The position numbers and the translations under genes are program-made. Below are positions 1,441 to 62,738 of a stretch of DNA of 64,000 bases, one piece after another (within the stretch, counting starts at the first letter, position 1; every line of letters starts with the position of its first letter). Under the pieces are notes generated by a model. The model made no database searches. It had not been told where the DNA came from and worked only from the letters and a program-made list of their open reading frames with translations. This stretch comes from Scyliorhinus canicula (lineage: Eukaryota), in the NCBI RefSeq assembly GCF_902713615.1, contig NC_052167.1, positions 19,582,690 through 19,646,689 on the forward strand, in the 5' to 3' direction.

Positions 1441-1712
1441 TCCTTTGTCATTTACTTGCTCCCATTTTCCACTCTAACATGGATTCCCCCTTCTGTTCTA
1501 TTGTCTCCTCCCCTCCCCCCATCTCTGCTTCTGTGCCCCTTTTAAACCTGGTAAACCCCTTACCAGCTTTTTCAGTTCCAGTGAAAGGCCATCGATCTTG
1601 AAAAGGTTGAGCCAGTTTCTCCTCCCGCAGATGCTGCCACACCTCGGGAGGGTTCCCAGCATTTTCTACTCCTGTTTCAGATTTCCTGCAGCTGCGGTTA
1701 TATTTGCTGTGG
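1441..1712 (+). mobile_element. Old Penelope-like terminal fragment (related relics at about 60565-60670 + and 61290-61365 -)
   Basis: cagatgctgcc...ccagcattttct...tttcagatttcc tail shared with the other copies. Confidence 0.5.
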
Positions 1713-3133: not shown

Positions 3134-4789
3134 CACGGTTTCCACAGAAGCTCCCCAGGCTTCAGTCAGAACTGGCAATTCACCAAATTCAATACAGTCT
3201 AGTGCCACGGTTGGGGAGATAGAACTGTAAGTGCTGTAGGCGCAGCTAACAAATGGCTTTGCTGTGAATAGGCAGCCTTAAAGTCTCTCTTGGATTGAGC
3301 CTGGATTTTGAGCTGTTATTGAAGATTATGTAGCGAAGCCAAACCTTGGATGGCTTGGTCCTATACTCTATCATTACAATAGGAGAGGAGAGGGCCATTC
3401 TTGTATTTGGCGTGCCGCCTCAAATTAATTTGTAAAACTCATATTTTATTTACAGCTATAAACAACACTTTGATTTGCAGAAAAACAGATTAATACTTTG
3501 GAACAGGGACCCCCACCCTATCCACAACCCAATTCATTTAGCTTTGTTGCTACTTCATAGAATCTTTGCCCTTCTAATCTTGACTTTATTGGCCAAAAGG
3601 TAATTCGCATGACTGTAACAAAATGGCTTCCAAAGGATTAGGTTATCCACAACATTACTCATGGCAAATCAAATAAACAAGTATTTAGAACAATTGTCAG
3701 GAAAATGGCAGCACGGTGGCGGAGTGATTAGCACTGCTGCCTCACGGCGCCAGGTTCGATCGCGCCCCTACGTCACTGTCCGTGTGGAGTTTGCACATTC
3801 CTCCGTGTCTGCGTGGGTTTTGCCCCCACAATCCAAAGATGTGCAGGGTAGGTGGATTGGCCACACTAAATTGCCCCTTAATTGGAATAAATGAATTGGT
3901 TACATTAAAAAAGAATTTTTTTTAAAGTAGTAACAATGGTCAGAAACAATAGACTATTTGCAAACAACATACTGCTCTGCTGGTGAAGGGGGAATTGCAT
4001 TTACGTAGTGCCTTTCATATCCTCAGTGAGTCTCAAAAGTGCTTAGCAATCTCTGCTACTGGGAGCAATGGTTGGACCAAAGGTCGGCATTTTAAGATCG
4101 TCTGTTCCAGTTTGCGTTGAAATTAAATGTTTCTGGGGCGCAGTAGTTAGCGCTGCTGCCTCACGCCGCTGAGGACCCGGGGACGATTCCGGCCCCGGGT
4201 CACTGGCCGTGTGGAGGTTGCACATTCTCCCCGTGTTTGTGTGGGTTTCACTCCCACAAACCCAAAAAGATGTGCAGGCTAGGTGGATTGGCCACGCTAA
4301 ATTGCCCCTTAAATTGAAAAAAAAAGAGAATTGGGTCCTCTAAAATTTTTTTAAAAGAAATTAAATTTTCTTCCTACGAGAAGGCCTGGTTTTACATTGC
4401 ACCAGAGCAGGAGAGGAGTAACTGACTCCACAACACAAAACGTAGCAAGGGAATTATTGGATAATAGACAAACGTGTTCAGGCATTCAGAATGGTTGTGA
4501 ACCGCCCTGACACTCAAATTGAAAATCACTCAGGATTGTTTGTTCTTGCACAAACTATGAAGGAGGGCATGCAAGAGAATTACCTTTTGGGAGTGGGGGA
4601 AAAGACGAGGAACTGTACAATTGACAACTGGGCGTTCCTGTATTTTGGAAAGATTTAGGTAGGCAGTGAGACGAGCAAAACTCCTTTCAGGAGAGCAAAG
4701 GAGGTTAACCGGGGATCTGTCAGAGGTGCTCCAGATAGTGAGGTGTTCATGAAGCGAACTGAGAAAACCATTTCCAGTAGCCAATAGGT

Positions 4790-7601: not shown

Positions 7602-7685
7602 AGTAAGAAGTCTTACAACAGCAGGTTAAAGTCCAACAGGTTTGTTTCGAATCACTAGCTTTCGGAGCACAGCTCCTTCCTCAGG
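7602..7685. mobile_element. Short Penelope-like fragment
   Basis: Near-identical to 44703-44780; flanked by a GTTAT duplication. Confidence 0.7.
7652..7685 (-). ncRNA. Minimal hammerhead ribozyme relic, helix I 5' arm truncated
   Basis: Minus strand C-CTGAGGA-A-GGAGC-tgt-GCTCC-GAAA-GCTA-GTGA; element ends at a GTTAT duplication. Confidence 0.6.
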
Positions 7686-18126: not shown

Positions 18127-18326
18127 TGATGTGGAGATGCCGGCGTTGGACTGGGGTGAGCACAGTAAGAAGTCTTACACCAGCAGGTTAAAGTCCGACA
18201 GGTTTGTTTTTTTCAGAGCACTGCTCCTTCCTCAGGTGAATCATTCACCTGAGGAAGGAGCAGTGCTCCGAAAGCTAGTGTTTAAAAAAAACCTGTTAGA
18301 CTTTAACCTGGTGTTGGAAGACTTAC
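18127..18326. mobile_element. Penelope-like element fragment forming an inverted repeat, inserted in a CR1 relic
   Basis: Arms at about 18164-18241 and 18243-18326 are reverse complements; TSD TTAAGAAA at 18119-18126 and 18327-18334; hammerhead motif. Confidence 0.75.
18246..18280 (+). ncRNA. Minimal type-I hammerhead ribozyme (Penelope-associated), core intact, antisense to MAPK8
   Basis: CAC-CTGAGGA-A-GGAGC-agt-GCTCC-GAAA-GCTA-GTG: CUGANGA and GAAA core, 5-bp helix II, palindromic AGCT helix III, CAC/GTG helix I. Confidence 0.75.
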
Positions 18327-30654: not shown

Positions 30655-33455
30655 AGGTTTTTTTATTAAGATTTTCCATTTTTACAAATAATGCAACAAA
30701 CCCTCAAAACTAGTACAGTAAAGTAAATGCTTCTATGTACAGAAATATGGAGAGGTTGGTTCAGTGTAATCATTAAACTTGTTGCTTCCGTTTATAAAAG
30801 GAAATAGATAAGCTCGAGAATGGGGAGAAAGAGGATAATGCCTTGTAAACAGGGTAAAATGGTGCCCACTTACACTTACTCATGCAGTTAAAGAAAATAA
30901 AGTATAAGATTTTCAGGTCCCGTTCGGGCTGCATTCGAACATACCTCCCCCAATTCCAAATACAGTATACCAAAGGCACCAATGACACATCATAATGTCT
31001 TTTTCTCAGATATGAAACCTGCCTGTACCTTTACAGGAGCCATTTTAACGATTCAATTTGCAAACAAAATATTTGCAAAGGCATCAGTTCAAATTGGGCA
31101 TTTTAAATTTAACCACGAGATGCAACAAGTCTGGTACAGTGCAGGGAGGTTATTATTCCACATACAGAAAAGACCAGCAGATATTCATACAATTGGTTCA
31201 GGTTACAATTACGGTCATCGCTATAGTCGGCGGCGTCTTTCATACAGAAAATGAAAGAATATCTCAGGATAACGGGATAAAGCCATGAGCACATGGCACC
31301 ATGGTATACATCCTCCTCCACAGGACAAGAACAGAGCTACAGAATATAGGGGATCTCTTTTGGAGCAAAATACAACCAACCGGGATGTAACTCAGCATCC
31401 CAAGACCTCCAAACAATAAAAGGATACCCCAGAAAAAGGGGAACAACAGGAAATGTGGCGACTAGGGGATTTTCACAGTAACTTCATTTGAAGCCTACTT
31501 GTGACAATAAGCGATTTTCATTTTTCATAGCAAACAGGATACTGCATCCCCAGGGGAACCAAATCTCAAGGCGAGTAATCCAGAAGACCCTAAAGGGGAG
31601 ACATCTCGGGGGGACCTGGTAAACAGTTACTCAGTCCTAACTCTCAATCGGGCTAATCCAGAATCAAAGACCCATTAGAATCGGGGCCAAAAGGCCAAGG
31701 ATACCCACATCACTCTTTCACATTGAACAAAGCAAACCACCTTCGTCTCTAAGCGTCCCAGAGGCACCACGTAGACCCTGCCATCAACGTGATTCTACCC
31801 ATTTCCCCTCATCTACCCATTTCCCCTCAAAGAAACCCTAACAACAGGATGATATACCCACTGTGCATTCCATGAGCCAAGTAATCAAGTAACGACTGTC
31901 ACTACCCGTGCAGCCAAATAAATATAGATGGCCAACCCAAGAAAGACCAGATAGCCAAGGAATAATAACCCACCACACCTAGGCATGTACCAGTACATAT
32001 TTCATCTCATTCCAACAACAGAAAACAAAAGGAACCTAGTCTTTTCGACGATACATGATCTGTCTGTACCTTAGTAGAATAGTAAGGAATGCAAAAATAA
32101 CCAGAGTATAAAAGAAAAATATGATACAATAGTTTGAACGGGGGATTTCCCCACCCACAGTAAAGCCAACCAACCACCTAAACACTAAACTACCTACCAC
32201 CACCCATCTATGGTGCTACTCATCTCACCTATAAATAAAGTCAAGGGTACCAAGAAATGTACTCCCTCAGTGTAAAAGCAAGGATTACAGTACAAAAAGG
32301 ACAGGTAAATACTGCACAACCGTTGTGCCACACAACTCAGCATGATTTCCACATTACAACAGGCAACAAGCACCTCTGTGCTCATATATCATGCCATATC
32401 TGGATAAAAGGCAACAACAGAACTGATATAATTACAAGGAAATGAAGTTCCAGATTAACGATGAAGCACAGAATAATATAACCATCCATGGAGCTTGAAA
32501 AGGACAAAGCATTGACAGGACCATCAAGCAACATTCCGAATCCATCCAGAGTTTCTGGGCCCCGGATTGTGGCGAAGACCCTTCGCGTCCGGCCGCCTCC
32601 AACCCTTCTCGACAAACATGGAGGACAAGGCCAGCCATCGGAATCCGTGACCTCCCCCAGGCCTCGAAGACTGGATACAATGCACGCTCCATCTAACTTG
32701 AAACACCCAGCCTTCAAATCAAGATTGTGAAAGCGTAGCAAAGAGTCCTCAAATTCAGCTGGGAGTTCATCCTTAGCTCCCTTTGGGAAAGCAGGCGCAA
32801 GGACACTCCCTGCCAGCCCCATCTCCCTGAATCGACCAGGATGTTCGACATACTGTGCAGCAGGATTTCCGAGGGCTGAAGGTGGGTCGCCAACCAAGGA
32901 AACTGCTCGATCGACTGGCAGGATTCTCTTCTCCACTTCATCCATTCTCTCGAGGATATTTTCAGGTCTTAATTGTGAGTATCAGCAAACTGTGCTGGGG
33001 AGCAGAGACCATTGTCCACGACTTCAGCACAATGGCAGCCACCATCTTAACACCAACGGCATCGCCAAAGCGTCAGCCTGCTGACCAGCGGAAGTGCCAC
33101 TACGAACTGGACACTTCCCATGCCGTCTCCGATCAAATAAAGATTTTCTTGAATCTGCTCTCCTTTGCCAAAATTTAGCCAGGAACACAACGCAGGATTT
33201 TAAAAAGGAGCTGGTTTAGCACACAGGGATAAATCGCTGGCTTTTAAAGCAGACCAAGGCAGGCCAGCAGCACGGTTCAATTTCCGTACCAGCCTCCCCG
33301 AACAGGCGCCAGAATGTGGCGACTAGGGGCTTTTCACAGTAATTTCATTTGAAGCCTACTTGTGACAATAAGCGATTTTCATTTCATTTCAAGAGATAAG
33401 TAGTGCCGGAGCTCGCGAAAAAGCAGCCGCTCCCACACTTACATCACATGGCCCC
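30655..33455 (-). mobile_element. Older, heavily decayed L1-like element, head-to-head with the + strand L1
   Basis: AATAAA and A-rich end at 30658-30667 (minus); ORF1-like remnants in ORFs 32382-32945 and 32432-32692; interrupted by SINE copies. Confidence 0.45.
33207..33390 (+). mobile_element. Second tRNA-derived SINE family (copies at about 490-690, 61718-61899; partial at 31449-31525 and 61395-61500)
   Basis: Near-identical copies: ggttcaattcccgtaccagc...gtggcgactaggggcttttcacagtaacttcatt...gtgacaataag, with a (catttt)n-like tail. Confidence 0.85.
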
Positions 33456-37931: not shown

Positions 37932-38057
37932 TAAACTAGTTAACTAGTTATGTTAACTACGTAAACTAGTTGACTAGTTAAGATCGCTGTGCACATATTT
38001 TCAACCATGTAGGGTAAAATAACTATTCACAGCTGTATACATATATTGAATTTTGAA

Positions 38058-38163
38058 TAAAAGCAAATTACTGTGGATGCTGGAATCTGAAAATAAAGAG
38101 AAAATGCTGGACCTGGCAGCACCTGGCTAATGTTTTGAGTCCAGATGACTCTTTGTCAAAGCT
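38058..38163 (-). mobile_element. Penelope-like terminal fragment, second family, with a decayed UUGACAA hammerhead
   Basis: Minus strand AGCT-TTGACAA-A-GAGTC-atctg-GACTC-aAAA-CAT-T-AGC, followed by the ccagcattttct...cagattccagcatc tail. Confidence 0.55.
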
Positions 38164-38179
38164 ATATTTAATTTTGATG

Positions 38180-38403
38180 GCGGCACGATAGCGCAGTGGT
38201 TAGCATTGGTGCCTCACGGCTCCGAAGACCCGGGATTGATCCTGGTCCCAGGTCACTGTCCGTGTGGAGTTTGCACATTCTCCCCATGTCTGAATGGGTC
38301 TCACCCCCACAACCGAAAACATGTGCAGGCTAGGTGGATTGGCCACACAAAATTGCCCCTTATTCGGGAAAAGAAATTGGGCATTCTTCATTTAATTTTT
38401 TTA
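38180..38403 (+). mobile_element. V-SINE short form with AT-rich tail and long TSD. Similar copies at about 3707-3925, 4135-4356, 28330-28540 -, 38484-38680, 41310-41460, 45520-45646 -, 50686-50885, 51039-51240 and 55209-55408
   Basis: Same tRNA head; ends aaattgccccttaattgg then A/T-rich; TSD ATTTAATTTTGATG at 38166-38179 and 38404-38417. Confidence 0.85.
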
Positions 38404-42705: not shown

Positions 42706-44702
42706 AAGGTATGTTAATGGTGTCTGCCTGAAGTATTCCGAGGTCATGTACAACACTGCTGCGTTATCCAATTCCAATTAAGTACTTCAAGGCCACCCAT
42801 TGACCCTATGAGCTGCACACACCAGCCTATTAGTATTTATGTTTTTTCTTTCGGACTATTCTTCCTGAAGTCAAGGTGAGGGTGAAAAATCCTAAATACG
42901 AACACCAAGGATCTATGTGTCAAAAACCTACTGTGCAGGCAAATTAATGGGAACATAGGCCAGTTTTGATATTAGTGACACTGATGTCAATTTTTACATT
43001 GTGGGTTGGGTGCAAAGTGTCCAAATAGATTTTATAAAGAAACCTTAAATGTGGCAGGACGTGTGAATTTTCATCCCATCAAGAATGGATGCTTTCGGAA
43101 CTGGATGCACCTGTCAGCATGCAGTAACTAACCCGACACCTCAATTTAAGAAGAGAGCACACAAATTCTCTATGCTCTGTAACCTTTCTCACTTCTGTAT
43201 GACTGACAACCAAGACCATCTGGTTTAGTAGACCCTCCAAACCATAGTAAGCGGATAGAATCATAGAATTTACAGTGCAGGAGACCATTTGGCCCATCGA
43301 GTCTGCACTGGCCTTTGGAAAGAGCACCCTACTTAAGCCCACGCCGCCACCCTCTCCCCATAATCCAGTAACCACACCCAACTTTTTGGACACTGAGGGA
43401 CAATCCACCTAACCTGCACATCTTTGGACTGTGGGACGAAACCTGAGCACCCGGAGGAAACTGACAGACAGTTACACGAGGCAGGAATTGACCCGGGACG
43501 CTGGAGCTGTGAGGCAGCAGCTGTGAAGGCTGTGGGTAGGAATGTGGCTCGGTCAGTCGAGCGCATGATATTAAATTATATTGGCTACAAGGGGACTGAG
43601 TATCAGGCACTTCATTTAACAGGAGGCTGATCCAATACCATTTGGCACCACCACCAGCGACAAATTTATACCCAGATCCCTAAAACACCATAAGGAATTC
43701 CATGTACAATAAACTGCTATTGAGTCACAGCAAAGTGGTGCCTTTCCCCCTCCCCCATTGGAGGGAATAGCAATGGGGAGGGTAATCAATTTTCATACGG
43801 GGGGTGGGGGGGGGGGGGGGAAGAGATAATTTAAAAATGCAATCCTCTATATCCCATTCCATCAAAAAGAAAATTAGATTTATTCAGTAACGGTAGCCTT
43901 GCCTATAATATTGAACTTTCCAAGAAAATGCCTCCTGCAGATTTTCAAACGATTTTCAGAAAGCTCCAGAAGAAAAATCAATCTCACTGGAGGGATTAAA
44001 ATAGGATTGGAGTCCTGCAGCTCGCTGAAACTGATGAATATCTTCACAGCAAAAAGGATAATGGAGCCATGGACAGACTTTTGTGTAAAAAACACAATCT
44101 TCGACTCAATGGAGTCTTTCACCTGGAAAGTATCTTTAAACAAACAGGGGAGTATTCACTATTGAGAGCAGGAAATCAATATACAGTATTGATATTAGTT
44201 TTTCCTCCTGGCATATTGCCTGAAGTAATTTTCAGAACATCACTGCCTCAGATCAATACAGACACAGGGACAGGCTTGCCAAGATTAATGGAGTCATGCC
44301 CTGAAACCTAGTGCGAACAATGGATATTTATGCAAGCAATACAAATGCCACCTTGTTAATTATTCATAACACAGATATTTTCAAAATGTTGTGTAGGCAC
44401 AAACTTCCCATCCAACAACCTGGCATGATTTTTGCTCATTCCTGCATGTGAAAGTGGCAAATAAGCAGAATAGAATTGCAACAAGGCAGAAGTAGCCTTG
44501 AACAATGTGCTTGCAAATGCTGGCCAGGAGGGGTTGCTGGCAAGCTAGTTTCTGGAATGCAAGGTTACTACGATTATGTTTTCAGACTATATATTTTGTT
44601 TTATATTATCATGGCTTGAAATTGTCCCTGTAAATGTAGGTTAATTGAAAGGAGTCACCTATGCTGGAATCTGCCCGACAGTAAAGCTAGGCAGTTAATT
44701 GA

Positions 44703-44836
44703 AGTCTTACAACACCAAGTTAAAGTCCAACAGGTTTGTTTCAAATCACTAGCTTTCGGAGCACTGCTCCTTCCTCAAGTGAAGAAATGTAAGACTTCTT
44801 ACTCACCCCAGTCCAACATCGGCATCTCCGCATCAT
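44703..44836. mobile_element. Penelope-like fragment with an inverted terminal segment
   Basis: Same family as 18127-18326; TSD AGTTAATTGA at 44693-44702 and 44837-44846. Confidence 0.72.
44746..44782 (-). ncRNA. Minimal hammerhead ribozyme relic with a C3-to-U change
   Basis: Minus strand TCAC-TTGAGGA-A-GGAGC-agt-GCTCC-GAAA-GCTA-GTGA. Confidence 0.62.
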
Positions 44837-48327: not shown

Positions 48328-50460
48328 CATAGAACATAGAGCAGTACAGACCCTTCAGCCCACAATGTTGTGCCGACCATTTATCCTAATCTAAGAACAA
48401 CCTAATCTATACCCCTTCAATTTACTGCTGTCCATGTGCTTGTCTAAGAGTCGCTTGAATGTCCCTAATGACTGACTCCACTACCTCTGCTGGCAGTGCA
48501 TTCCACACACCAACCACTCTCTGTGTAAAGAACCTACCTCTGACATCTCCCCTATACCTTCCTCCAATCACCTTAAAATTATGTCCCCTCGTGACAGCGA
48601 TTTCCACCCTGGGAAAAAGTCTCTGGCTATCCACTCTATCCATGCCTCTCATCACCTTGTACACCTCTATCAAGTCACCTCTCTGCCTTCTTCGCTCCAG
48701 TGAGAAAAACCCTAGCTCCCTCAACCTTTCTTCATAAGACATGCCGTCCAGTCTAGGCAACATCCTAGTAAATCTCCTCTACACCCTCTCCAAAGCATCC
48801 ACATCCTTCCGATAATGAGGCAACTAGAGTTTTATAAAGCTGCATCAAAACATCGTGGCTCTAAAACTCAATCCCCCTGTTAATGAAAACCAACACACCA
48901 TACGCCTTCGTAACAACCCTATCAACCTGGGTGGCAACTTTGAGGGATCTATGCACGTGGACCCCAAGATCCCTCTGTTCCTCCACACTACCAAGAATGC
49001 TCCCTTTAACCCTGTATTCAGCATTCATATTCGACCTTCCAAAATGAATCGCTTCACATTTATCAAGGTTGAACTCCATCTGCCACTTCTCAGCCCAGCT
49101 CTGCATCCTGTCAATATCCGGTTGTAACCTGCAACAACCCTCAACACTATCTACAACTCCACCAACTTTTGTATAATCGGCAAACTTACTAACCCACCCT
49201 TCCCCATCCTCATCCAAGTCATTTATGAAAATCACAAAGAGCAGAGGTCCCAGAACAGACCCTAGCGGGACACCACTGGTCACTGACCTCCAGGCGGAAT
49301 ACTTTCCATCCACTACCACTTGCTGTCTTCTTTCGGCCAGCCAATTCTGTATCCAGACAGCCAAATTTCCCTGTATCCCATGCCCACTATCAAATGCCTC
49401 ACTGAAATCCATATGCACCACATCCACTGCCCGACCTTCATCAATGTGTCTCGTCACATCCTCAAAGAATTCAATGAGGCATGACCTGCCCCTCACAAAG
49501 CCATGCTGACTATCTTTAATCAAACTAAGTTTTTCTAAATAATCATATATCCTATTTCTCAGAATCATTTCCAATATTTTGCTCACCACAGACACAAGAC
49601 TGATGGGTCTGTAATTCCCAGGGATTTCCCTATTCCATTTTTTGAACAGGGGAACAACATTCACCTCTCTCCAATCATCCGGTACTACTCCAGTGGAGAG
49701 TGAGGACGCAAAGATCATCGCCAACGGCGCAGCAATCTCCTCCCTCGCTTCCCGTAGTAACCTTGGGTATATCCCATCAGGCCCAGGGGACTTATCTATC
49801 CTGATGCTTTTCAAAATCTCCAGCACATCCTGCTTCTTAATATCAACCTGTTCAAGTCTATTAACCTGGTTCACACTGTTCTCATGGGCAACAAGGTCCG
49901 TCTCTCTAGTGAATACTGAAGCAAAGTATTCATTTAGGACCTCCCCCACCTCTTCAGACTCTAATGCACAAGTTCCCTCCACGATCCCTGATCAGACCTA
50001 CTCTCACTCTGATCATCCTCTTATTTCTGACATAAGTGTAGAATGCCTTGGGGTTTTCCCTAATCCTTCCCACCAGGGCTGTTTCATGTCCCCTTCTGGC
50101 TCTCCTCAGTCCATTTTTGAGTTCCTTCCTGGCTACCTTGTAACCTTCTAGAGCCGAGTCAGATCCTTGCTTCCTCAACCTTACGTAAGCTTCCTTCTTC
50201 CTCTTGACTAGAAGCTCCACTTCTCTTGTCATCCAAGGCTCCTTCACCTTACCATTCCTTCCTCATCTCAGTGGGACAAAATAATTCAGCACTCACAGCA
50301 TGTACTCCTTAAAAAATCCCCACATTACTATTGTGCATTTCCCCCAAGAACAATTGTTCCCACTTTATGCTCCTCAGCTCCTGTCTAATAGCAGTATAAT
50401 CTCCCCTCCCCCAATTACATACCTTCCCATACTGTGTGTTCCTATCCCTCTCCATGACGA
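48328..50460 (-). mobile_element. CR1-type LINE, 5'-truncated, with reverse transcriptase remnant
   Basis: 373-aa ORF with KSPGPDG, NYRPISL, QHGF, GVPLGSVLGPLLF and FADY(D)TK; internal deletions; (ttctatg)n tail at 48328. Confidence 0.95.
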
Positions 50461-50506
50461 AGAAGTCTTACAACACCAGGTTAAAGTCCAACAGGTTTGT
50501 TTCGCA

Positions 50507-50543
50507 TCACTAACTTTCGGAGCGCAACTCCTTCATCAGGTGA
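50507..50543 (-). ncRNA. Minimal hammerhead ribozyme, sense to MAPK8; core intact, helix III palindrome changed AGCT to AGTT
   Basis: Minus strand TCAC-CTGATGA-A-GGAGT-tgc-GCTCC-GAAA-GTTA-GTGA. Confidence 0.7.
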
Positions 50544-60500: not shown

Positions 60501-62636
60501 CAGCCAGTGGTGGTGCATCATTGGACAATCTCGGAAGAACACATAAAGTTTAAATTTTGCCATTTCTGATGGAAGGTGACAGACTTGAAACACCAGCTGT
60601 TTCTCCCTCCACAGATGCCGCACGAGCTACTCAATTTTCCTACCATATTCATGTTTTATTTTTCAAATTTGTATTGCATATTTAGTTCCCATGAGAAGTA
60701 AAACAGCTTTGGATTGATGCTAACCCAGCAGTGTAAATGGATTCCAAATGGATTTTTTAATATGGAATTATAGAATCCCAATAGTGCATGAGGCCATTTG
60801 GTCCATCGAGTCTGTGCCCTCCGAAGGAGCACCCTACCTAGGTCCACTCCCCCACCCTACCCCCATAACCCCACCTAACCTTTTGGACACTAATGGGCAA
60901 TTCAAGCTGTAACACCCATCCATTATCCAGGGGTAGAACAGCAAACCCACAATAATTTACATTGTGATAACTTTGATCACTCCTTCACTGATGGCCATCA
61001 TGTTGTGTCGCACGACAAGCATGCTAAATCACTTCAGACAGATCTAGCAACTCAAAACCGGCATTTATGAGGCACTGAGGATCTTCAGCTACAGCAGATT
61101 GTACTCAAATGCAATCTGTAACCTCATGGCCTGGTATTTCCCCACTCTATCATTACCACCAAACCTGGTTCAATGAGAGTGTAGGAGGGTAGGCTAGGAG
61201 TAATACCAAAAAATAAGGTGTCAACCTGGTGAAGCTACAATACAGGATTATCTGCATGCCAATCAGCATAAGCAGCAAGTAATAGATAGAAACCAAAAGA
61301 GAAAAATCTCAGCAGGTCTGGCAGCATGTGTAGGGAAAGAAAGAGCTAACGTTTCAAGTCCAGAGTAATAGACAGAGCTAAGCAATTCCATACAATTCCC
61401 GTACCAGCCTCCCCGGATAGGCGCCGGAATGTGGCGACTAGGGGCTTTTCACAGTAACTTCATTGAAGCCTACTCGTGACAATAAGCGATTTTCATTTCA
61501 TTTTTCAAACGGAGCAGAAGTAAGCTCTGTGATCCTAGCGCATCCTGTCATGAATGGTGGTGGACAATTAAACAACTCACTGGAGGAGGCTCCACAAATA
61601 TCCGCATCCTCAAGTCATTCAATATGTATAGATGACAAACTGCTGTTACTTCTTTTGCTTCAATATAATTATAAATCTTAAATAAATGGAATTTCAAGTT
61701 TTAGCCAGAACAACCCAGGGGCTGGTTTCGCTCACTCGGCTAAATCGCTGGCTTTTAAAGCAGACCAAGCAGGCCAGCAGCACAGTTCGATTCCCGTACC
61801 AGCCTCCCTGGACAGGCGCCGGAATGTGGCGACTAAGGGCTTTTCACAGTAACTTCATTGAAGCCTACTCGTGACAATAAGCGATTTTCATTTCATTTCA
61901 ATTTTAATAGCATTATTCCGTCTCACATATATAGAACTACACAATATAATTTCATGTTCAAAATAGTTCAGCAAAAAAAGGTCAACAGTCAGGACATTCT
62001 GTTTCTATTCATGGTACACATAAAGGCATACATTTCAGATCACAGGAGATGAAGATCTGCCTATGGTAAAAGCATTTTGCTTGAGAACACAAAGAGGGCT
62101 GTCACAGAGCCAGAAATCTAACAGTGCCGAAGATAAAAATGTTAAATGCAAAGTGCCGACAGTAACTTAGATGAACATTTTACGGCAATGAAGAATATTT
62201 CTTTTTTTTTCAAATTCACCATCCGGGCAGGTTACTCATATTTCAACGAAAATATTATATTCATCCATTGTAAGACCTGCCTCTGGTTTTAAAGACTAAC
62301 AATGCACATCCCAAACTGCATTGTAATCCGCAGCTGAAGCAGAAATCATCCTACGTTTAAGCAGAGAATTCAAATATTTAAGGTGGTCTATTCCCATTGC
62401 TTCTGAGCATCACTATTGAACATTTGATCATGCTTCCCTGAACTCAGTCACACAGCCATGTGACATTATCCAATGCAGTGTTTCAATTTTTAATATAAAG
62501 CAAGAAAATCAGGTGCAACTTAACAATTTTACAAATCCAATGTGTTTTACTTGGTTGACTAACAACTGTAAGGAGATTCATTTCCCTCCCCATTTGTGGA
62601 TTCCTACCAGAATACTAGAATAAATTGCACAAGTAA

Positions 62637-62738
62637 GGCTTTGACAAAGAGTCATCCAGACTTGGAACGTGAGCTCCATTCTCTCTCCACAAACGCCATC
62701 AGACCTGCTGAGATTGTCCAGCATTTTCTGCTTTTGTT
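62637..62738 (+). mobile_element. Penelope-like terminal fragment, second family, with a decayed UUGACAA hammerhead
   Basis: GGCT-TTGACAA-A-GAGTC-atcca-GACTT-GGAA-CGT-G-AGCT, then ...gacctgctgagattgtccagcattttctg. Confidence 0.55.

What the first reader, a model, noticed from the sequence alone, without database searches (positions are those of the whole stretch)
62637..62675. Second Penelope-like family with a compensatory U3-A8 hammerhead core (UUGACAA)
Seen: two independent copies (62641-62647 +, and 38153-38159 -) read TTGACAA where CUGANGA is expected. Each is followed by A-GAGTC-loop-GACTY, and a third partial copy (about 61345-61362 -) supplies GAAA-CGT-T-AGCT. The reconstructed consensus AGCT-UUGACAA-A-GAGUC-N5-GACUC-GAAA-CGU-U-AGCU keeps helix I, helix II and a palindromic ACGU helix III. 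Known: positions 3 and 8 form a Watson-Crick pair (normally C3-G8), and U3-A8 is a tolerated but rare covariant. Inference: a high-copy vertebrate retroelement family used a non-canonical hammerhead that CUGANGA searches would miss. The copies in this window are individually decayed.
Basis: partly seen in the sequence, partly recalled or inferred. Interest (0 to 1): 0.7.

Follow-up and report, generated by a model that had tools for sequence, protein, structure and literature searches.

The report
Retrotransposon hammerhead with swapped core pair
This is a broken copy of a small, predicted self-cutting RNA motif (hammerhead) carried by thousands of copies of a Penelope-like jumping gene; its U-A core pair in place of C-G is the normal form in three successive subfamilies and likely preserved the fold, but the same swap is already published for flatworm elements of this class.

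Summary
Real, and fixed in the family, but of a known kind. The motif is the minimal type I hammerhead of a Penelope-like element (RT + GIY-YIG ORF upstream). With a 5-nt loop II, exact-pattern counts are U3-A8 1918, C3-A8 65, U3-G8 61, C3-G8 62. A younger subfamily with a 4-nt loop adds 3775 matches (A8 in 97 of 100 listed, U3 in 30 of 30 loci). Mismatched cores occur at about the background mutation rate; C3-G8 copies belong to older sister lineages. After the swap, 0 of 34 non-loop hammerhead positions differ between subfamilies B and A2, against 10 of 55 in the tail. U3-A8 is in print for natural hammerheads (PMC3088659) and for Schistosoma Penelope-like elements (PMC4209133); I found no vertebrate case in the searches run. 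All three window copies carry disabling changes. Cleavage is untested. A TATA-like box lies 30-31 nt before helix I and short copies start there, so transcription likely starts at the hammerhead. The scan noted both points before in other genomes.

The parts
62637..62675 (+). Minimal type I hammerhead motif, subfamily B copy. Disabling changes against the subfamily majority: A13 reads G (62665), N17 reads G (62671); also C11.1 reads T (62663) and A2.4 reads G (62637)
62641..62647 (+). Core U3-U4-G5-A6-C7-A8-A9 (U3 = 62641, A8 = 62646)
62638..62738 (+). Whole short insertion (hammerhead plus short tail); 87% identical to subfamily B copy L234; starts inside the 5' strand of helix I
38054..38166 (-). 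Short insertion of subfamily A1 with long tail and an internal deletion
38125..38163 (-). Hammerhead motif with UUGACAA core (38153-38159); G12 and G16.2 read A (both CpG sites), U1.4 reads C
61303..61364 (-). 5'-truncated subfamily A1 copy beginning in loop II; no core 5' half
1616..1683 (+). Tail-only fragment of the same family, no hammerhead
   Evidence: E 3e-9 against L010

Best explanation
The motif is a decayed copy of the minimal hammerhead of a Penelope-like retrotransposon lineage in which the C3-G8 core pair was replaced by U3-A8, likely as a compensatory change that kept a predicted self-cleaving fold. Shown: the element (RT + GIY-YIG), fixation of U3-A8 in subfamilies B, A1 and A2, C3-G8 in the older sister lineage C, and an unchanged hammerhead after the swap. 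Inferred: the swap happened once, in the master that founded B; the hammerhead cannot close helix III alone (ACGU palindrome, no loop) and would cut after U17 only as a dimer, for example between the 5' and 3' repeats of a full-length transcript, perhaps with help from the element's protein; transcription likely starts at the A of helix I, 30-31 nt below a TATA-like box, so that reverse transcription begun in the tail of uncut RNA runs off the 5' end and leaves the 100-140-bp stubs seen in the window. The window copies themselves are predicted to be inactive.
For: Core-state counts 1918/65/61/62 of 2106; 7.4 C3-G8 expected under independence. Core-blind samples: all 30 hammerheads found downstream of endonuclease hits in loci L100-L130 have U3 and A8 (L119 skipped as duplicate, none found in L129); B sample anchored on the 3' UTR U3 30 of 30, A8 22, G8 4, gap or other 4; C sample C3 22 of 30, G8 24 of 30. 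No other letter at 3% or more at U3 or A8 in 4 of 4 laid runs. In B, U3-G8/U3-A8 = 28/410 and C3-A8/U3-A8 = 22/410 (hand counts) match tail A>G 19 of 300 and T>C about 4% (hand counts). B-loop C3-G8 copies carry C-like tail letters (10 of 13 vs 2 of 30, p 8e-6). Divergence order C 14.6%, B 10.3%, A1 8.8%, A2 3.3%. All 4 differences between the C and B majorities are structure-compatible (positions 3, 8, free position 7, and one that restores a helix I pair); B vs A2 0 of 34 against 10 of 55 in the tail. The MFE fold of 4 of 4 real copies is helix I + helix II. U3-A8 described as active in vitro (PMC3088659 section 8). TATAWAW at 30-31 nt in 35 of 65 long copies; short-copy match to template drops from 71 of 115 at -4 to 30 of 115 at -5 (26 expected).
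Against: No cleavage assay. The swap is one evolutionary event, so copy counts are not independent evidence; only pair 3-8 and one helix I pair (3 cells) show two-sided change, and 288 of 500 shuffles reach that number of pairs. Helix II never covaries on both sides. The C majority has a C-A mismatch in helix I, so constraint on the fold is not absolute. The nearest-neighbour model rates the hammerhead dimer (-16.7 kcal/mol) below two monomers (-19.8). The endonuclease tree leaves B unresolved and neither shows nor rejects one U3-A8 clade (p-AU 0.385); polarity rests on age order and on C3-G8 being the usual state. In the anole element cleavage was not needed for insertion in vitro (PMC11167929). 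No extra G before AGCT in short copies (8 of 37, background 22%), and a polypyrimidine tract plus YAG at the same place also fits a 3' splice site.
Confidence: 0.75

Rival explanations
1. The hammerhead is no longer used for cutting; the two changes rode along in one successful master, and the 39 nt stay conserved for another reason (core promoter, 5' leader or protein-binding site).
For: The motif likely overlaps +1 to +39 of the transcript. Hammerhead mutants did not reduce insertion in vitro in the anole element (PMC11167929); many PLE clades thrive without canonical hammerheads (PMC8557442 passages). Integrated copies carry an uncut hammerhead.
Against: The only region that differs among B, A1 and A2 is loop II plus one G-U wobble; all 4 C-to-B changes respect the hammerhead structure, two of them making a Watson-Crick pair at 3-8. 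The same pair arose in Schistosoma elements.
Confidence: 0.2
2. UUGACAA is post-insertion decay of CUGACGA (CpG deamination at G8 plus a C-to-T transition at 3).
For: N7 is C in the U3-A8 lineage, so the ancestral 7-8 step would be a CpG; true CpG sites of the motif do decay.
Against: A8 in 97 of 100 and U3 in 30 of 30 copies of the youngest subfamily, whereas the CpG G12 is changed in only about 16% of X21 reads (104 of 636); the canonical family in the same genome shows 0 U3-A8 among 100 listed.
Confidence: 0.02
3. The short copies start at AGCT because the AG is a 3' splice site (as for the Drosophila virilis Penelope intron), not a transcription start.
For: A pyrimidine tract and YAG precede CT in A, B and C; the D. 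virilis intron ends at the 5' end of helix I (PMC4209133).
Against: Short copies keep the AG itself and share no upstream exon sequence; the second family has a TATA-like run 30 nt before a TCATT initiator-like word and no AG there; no joint into this position among the joints shown (7 joints not shown).
Confidence: 0.15

Closest known systems
U3-A8 minimal hammerheads of Cercyon Penelope-like elements, Schistosoma mansoni (Cervera and De la Pena 2014, PMC4209133)
   Same: UUGANAA core, extra nucleotide after A9, G10.1-C11.1, palindromic ACGU with no loop III, U17; row S. mansoni(4) reads UUGAAAAA ... C G U U; PLE-linked; about 1,300 hits
   Different: Vertebrate host, N7 = C, 5-bp helix II, several thousand near-identical copies, and a dated series from C3-G8 sisters to three U3-A8 subfamilies; the vertebrate rows of that paper's 56-row alignment all read CUGANGA and none is a cartilaginous fish
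Natural U3-A8 hammerhead core variants (Perreault et al. 2011, PMC3088659)
   Same: Same covariation of the 3-8 pair, stated there to be active in vitro
   Different: Those were several examples from a broad survey; here the pair is fixed in a high-copy retrotransposon lineage and sits in a minimal, helix-III-less motif
Neptune/Nematis-type EN+ Penelope-like elements (PMC8557442 passages)
   Same: Single ORF with RT then GIY-YIG, CX4CxxC linker (CNRRRCNTC), inverted 5' duplication, 5'-truncated copies, 3' tail
   Different: No RT phylogeny against reference clades was run, so Neptune versus Nematis is not decided
PAc, Poseidon element of Anolis carolinensis (Frangieh et al. 2024, PMC11167929)
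   Same: Hammerhead next to a tail with more than one 3' end; copies made from uncut RNA
   Different: PAc has C3-G8 and is of the Penelope/Poseidon clade, which lacks the zinc-finger linker; its protein-assisted cleavage is untested here

Membership tests
EN+ Penelope-like element | One ORF with RT followed by GIY-YIG endonuclease | tested here: met
   L111: 762-aa open frame, RVT_1 E 3.9e-7 above cutoff, GIY-YIG E 0.004 below cutoff; L011 GIY-YIG E 9.1e-5 above cutoff; UUGACAA motif about 320 nt downstream
EN+ Penelope-like element | Partial-tandem or inverted terminal repeats and a tail | tested here: met
   Inverted 5' duplication in L111, two hammerheads 433 bp apart in L116, tails of about 65 and 105 nt
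Neptune/Nematis clades | CX2-5CxxC zinc-finger-like linker between RT and EN | tested here: met
   CNRRRCNTC in L111; definition from PMC8557442
Neptune/Nematis clades | RT phylogeny within the clade | not tested
   No reference PLE proteins were fetched
Minimal type I hammerhead (min-HHR) | Core with 3-8 pair, U4 G5 A6, A9, G12 A13 A14, A15.1-U16.1, H17 | tested here: met
   Subfamily majorities B, A1, A2; not met by the individual window copies
Minimal type I hammerhead (min-HHR) | Helix I, helix II with G10.1-C11.1, extra nucleotide after A9, palindromic 15.2-16.2 | tested here: met
   features listed in PMC4209133
Minimal type I hammerhead (min-HHR) | Two-sided covariation in helix II | tested here: not met
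   0 of 5 pairs within this lineage; G-U in 5 cells only. Hand-picked 30-row alignment of pattern-selected copies
Minimal type I hammerhead (min-HHR) | Self-cleavage after N17 as a dimer | not testable with these tools
   Needs an in vitro assay
Rfam hammerhead families | Match to a covariance model | tested here: not met
   No hammerhead hit at E up to 10 in the window or on intact copy L137; the canonical-core family in the window was missed too, so this reflects the minimal architecture

The most novel reading that the evidence does not exclude
A vertebrate retrotransposon lineage swapped a catalytic-core base pair of its hammerhead in one step of its history and then froze every non-loop position through three amplification waves: genomic evidence that Penelope-like elements need an active hammerhead, which forms the very first 39 nt of a TATA-driven transcript and cuts only when 5' and 3' repeats dimerise.
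Probability: 0.45. Interest if true: 0.5.

Novelty: new member of a known kind. Interest (0 to 1): 0.3.

Why it matters
Whether Penelope-like elements need their hammerheads is open (PMC8557442 calls the function unclear; PMC11167929 found cleavage dispensable in vitro). A fixed compensatory core pair with older C3-G8 sisters in the same genome is a natural experiment in favour of function and gives ready-made constructs to test. In practice, several thousand motifs per genome are invisible to CUGANGA descriptors. The variant itself is published, so this is a new example rather than a new kind.

Tried and rejected
Rfam scans found no hammerhead in the window or on an intact copy. A transposing U3-G8 intermediate was considered: its frequency in subfamily B (28/410) equals background A>G (19 of 300), so it is not supported; faint hints remain (G8 in 4 of 27 ungapped core-blind B copies; one tail column p 0.075). 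Cap-derived extra G at the 5' junction: not seen. Target-site duplications: exact repeats of 7 nt or more in 28 of 133 short copies against 14 in a shuffled-flank control, so present in some copies only. No RNA holder listed on record; raw RNA reads of organism A cover the motif on both strands with no pile-up of starts or ends at the predicted cut, which says nothing either way because these are fragmented poly(A) libraries dominated by passively transcribed dead copies. Endonuclease tree: A1+A2 and C group, B does not resolve. Alignment A1 mixed strands and was not used. The sigma-70 scan does not apply to this organism. tblastn of the L111 protein found no ORF remnant of this family in the window. 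Lunse et al. 2017 (PMC5785218) is not held; only its title was seen, so a vertebrate U3-A8 example there cannot be excluded; supplement file 1 of PMC4209133, part 3 of file 2, and bioRxiv supplements were not seen.

Full report
Observation. The heptamer occurs 16 times in the window; 2 of 16 have this context. The three copies are short insertions of 62-113 bp with a shared tail, and a tail-only piece lies at 1616-1683. The genome is 4.22 Gb; that the host is a cartilaginous fish is my recollection from its repeats and from earlier scan notes, and was not tested.

Fixation of the core. One pattern (5-nt loop II) was run with each state of positions 3 and 8: U3-A8 1918, C3-A8 65, U3-G8 61, C3-G8 62; reversed controls 0. 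U3-A8 is 91% of 2106; 7.4 C3-G8 would be expected if the positions were independent. A further subfamily with a 4-nt loop gave 3775 matches, A8 in 97 of the 100 listed and U3 in 30 of 30 loci. These are exact matches, so lower bounds that favour young copies. Samples chosen without the core agree. Of 31 loci L100-L130 taken by endonuclease similarity (L119 skipped as a duplicate of L106, no motif found in L129), all 30 motifs found have U3 and A8. Thirty loci taken by a subfamily B 3' UTR have U3 30 times, and A8 22, G8 4, gap or other 4; thirty taken by a subfamily C UTR have C3 22 and G8 24. In four laid runs with two organism labels no other letter reached 3% at U3 or A8. The second hammerhead family of the window (9289 exact matches) shows C3-G8 in 94 and U3-A8 in 0 of 100 listed (hand count).

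The element. An endonuclease-like stretch upstream of copy L011 matches GIY-YIG and has 30,609 first-look candidates, 150 scored. L111 holds a 762-aa open frame with RVT_1 and GIY-YIG, a CNRRRCNTC linker of the type that PMC8557442 gives for Neptune and Nematis (passages), a UUGACAA motif about 320 nt downstream and an inverted 5' duplication with a second one. It is a Penelope-like element.

History. Four subfamilies are told apart by loop II and tail: C (C3-G8, 14.6% from its majority), B (10.3%), A1 (8.8%) and A2 (3.3%), the last three U3-A8 (the A1 sample was pattern-selected). The 62637 copy is B, the other two A1. In B (strict loop pattern) the states are 410 U3-A8, 28 U3-G8, 22 C3-A8 and 13 C3-G8 (hand counts). 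Background A>G in the tail of 30 U3-A8 copies is 19 of 300 and T>C about 4% (hand counts), so the mismatched states need no master of their own. The 13 C3-G8 copies carry C-like tail letters (10 of 13 against 2 of 30; 8 of 13 against 3 of 30): an older master. The C and B majorities differ at 4 of 34 non-loop positions: 3, 7, 8 and 1.2, the last repairing a C-A mismatch of helix I. B and A2 differ at 0 of 34, against 10 of 55 in the tail and most of the spacer above. The tree of 54 endonuclease stretches groups A1+A2 (89/100) and seven of eight C rows (93/91), leaves B open, and does not reject one U3-A8 clade (p-AU 0.385). On a hand-picked 30-row alignment pair 3-8 is 13 C-G, 13 U-A, 1 U-G, 2 unpaired; helix II has no two-sided change. 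All this is one event counted many times.

Mechanism. Real copies fold into helix I and helix II (4 of 4). ACGU has no loop, so helix III can form only between two motifs (established for minimal hammerheads, PMC4209133); the energy model does not favour that dimer (-16.7 against -19.8 kcal/mol), but it ignores core tertiary contacts. U17 after CGU is common in the published alignment. A TATAWAW word lies 30-31 nt above the A of helix I in 35 of 65 long copies and in all four majorities. In 115 short copies (loci L001-L030 left out because their pattern demanded GCT) the match to template is 71, 65, 72, 92 at -4 to -1 and falls to 30 at -5, with 26 expected; loose read ends cluster at the same place. 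I infer that transcription starts at the hammerhead and that stubs are run-off copies of uncut RNA; no cap-derived G was seen, and a splice-acceptor reading is not excluded. The window copies have lost A13 and H17 (62637), G12 (38153) or the 5' half of the core (61345) and are predicted to be inactive.

What is known. U3-A8 covariation in natural hammerheads: PMC3088659, section 8 read. U3-A8 in Cercyon Penelope-like elements of Schistosoma mansoni, about 1,300 hits: PMC4209133, parts 1-2 of 4 of the text and parts 1-2 of 3 of supplement file 2 read; its vertebrate rows read CUGANGA and none is a cartilaginous fish. PMC11167929, parts 1-2 of 4 read. Passages only: PMC8557442, PMC6155905, PMC7151607, PMC6765202, bioRxiv 10.64898/2026.07.22.740005 (no occurrence of U3-A8 or shark). 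Searches listed no paper on a vertebrate U3-A8 family; one search found the term only in PMC4209133. Lunse et al. 2017 was seen as a title only. Earlier scan notes on other genomes reached the same two readings; they are unreviewed and were looked up after my own tests.

Verdict. Real, family-wide and likely compensatory; a new, vertebrate member of a published variant. Interest 0.3.

Noticed in passing
window 18218-18310, 7605-7685, 44699-44779, 50460-50540: Four copies of a second hammerhead family with canonical core; the copy at 18218 is a fold-back that turns just before helix I. 9289 exact matches genome-wide; TATA-like run 30 nt before a TCATT word that precedes helix I.
   Followed up: partly
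L033, L053, L060 and the subfamily C sample L191-L220: Subfamily C has AACU as the 3' strand of helix I; its 5' strand is AGCU (mismatch) in 17 and AGUU (paired) in 9 of 30, so two masters may be mixed.
   Followed up: partly
L004, L062, L074, L139, L259 and others: Head-to-head inversions centred on or near the palindromic AGCT of helix I; 10 of 47 short copies with full AGCT.
   Followed up: partly
L119 (G000:C1:311571500-311581400): Two near-identical element copies about 4.9 kb apart, each with the same 3' UTR deletion up to the core; may be a segmental duplication.
   Followed up: no
window 3704-3891, 4131-4322, 38184-38373 and others (families D1-D8): Abundant SINE-like repeats with a tRNA-like head make up much of the window's repeat content.
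   Followed up: no
window 31452-31523, 33280-33388, 61395-61503, 61790-61898: A young repeat family (up to 97% identity) one copy of which sits directly beside the partial hammerhead copy at 61303-61364.
   Followed up: no
PMC4209133 supplement, Saccoglossus kowalevskii(1) row: A published PLE-linked row reads UUGAAGAA (U3 with G8), so the wobble state exists in nature.
   Followed up: no
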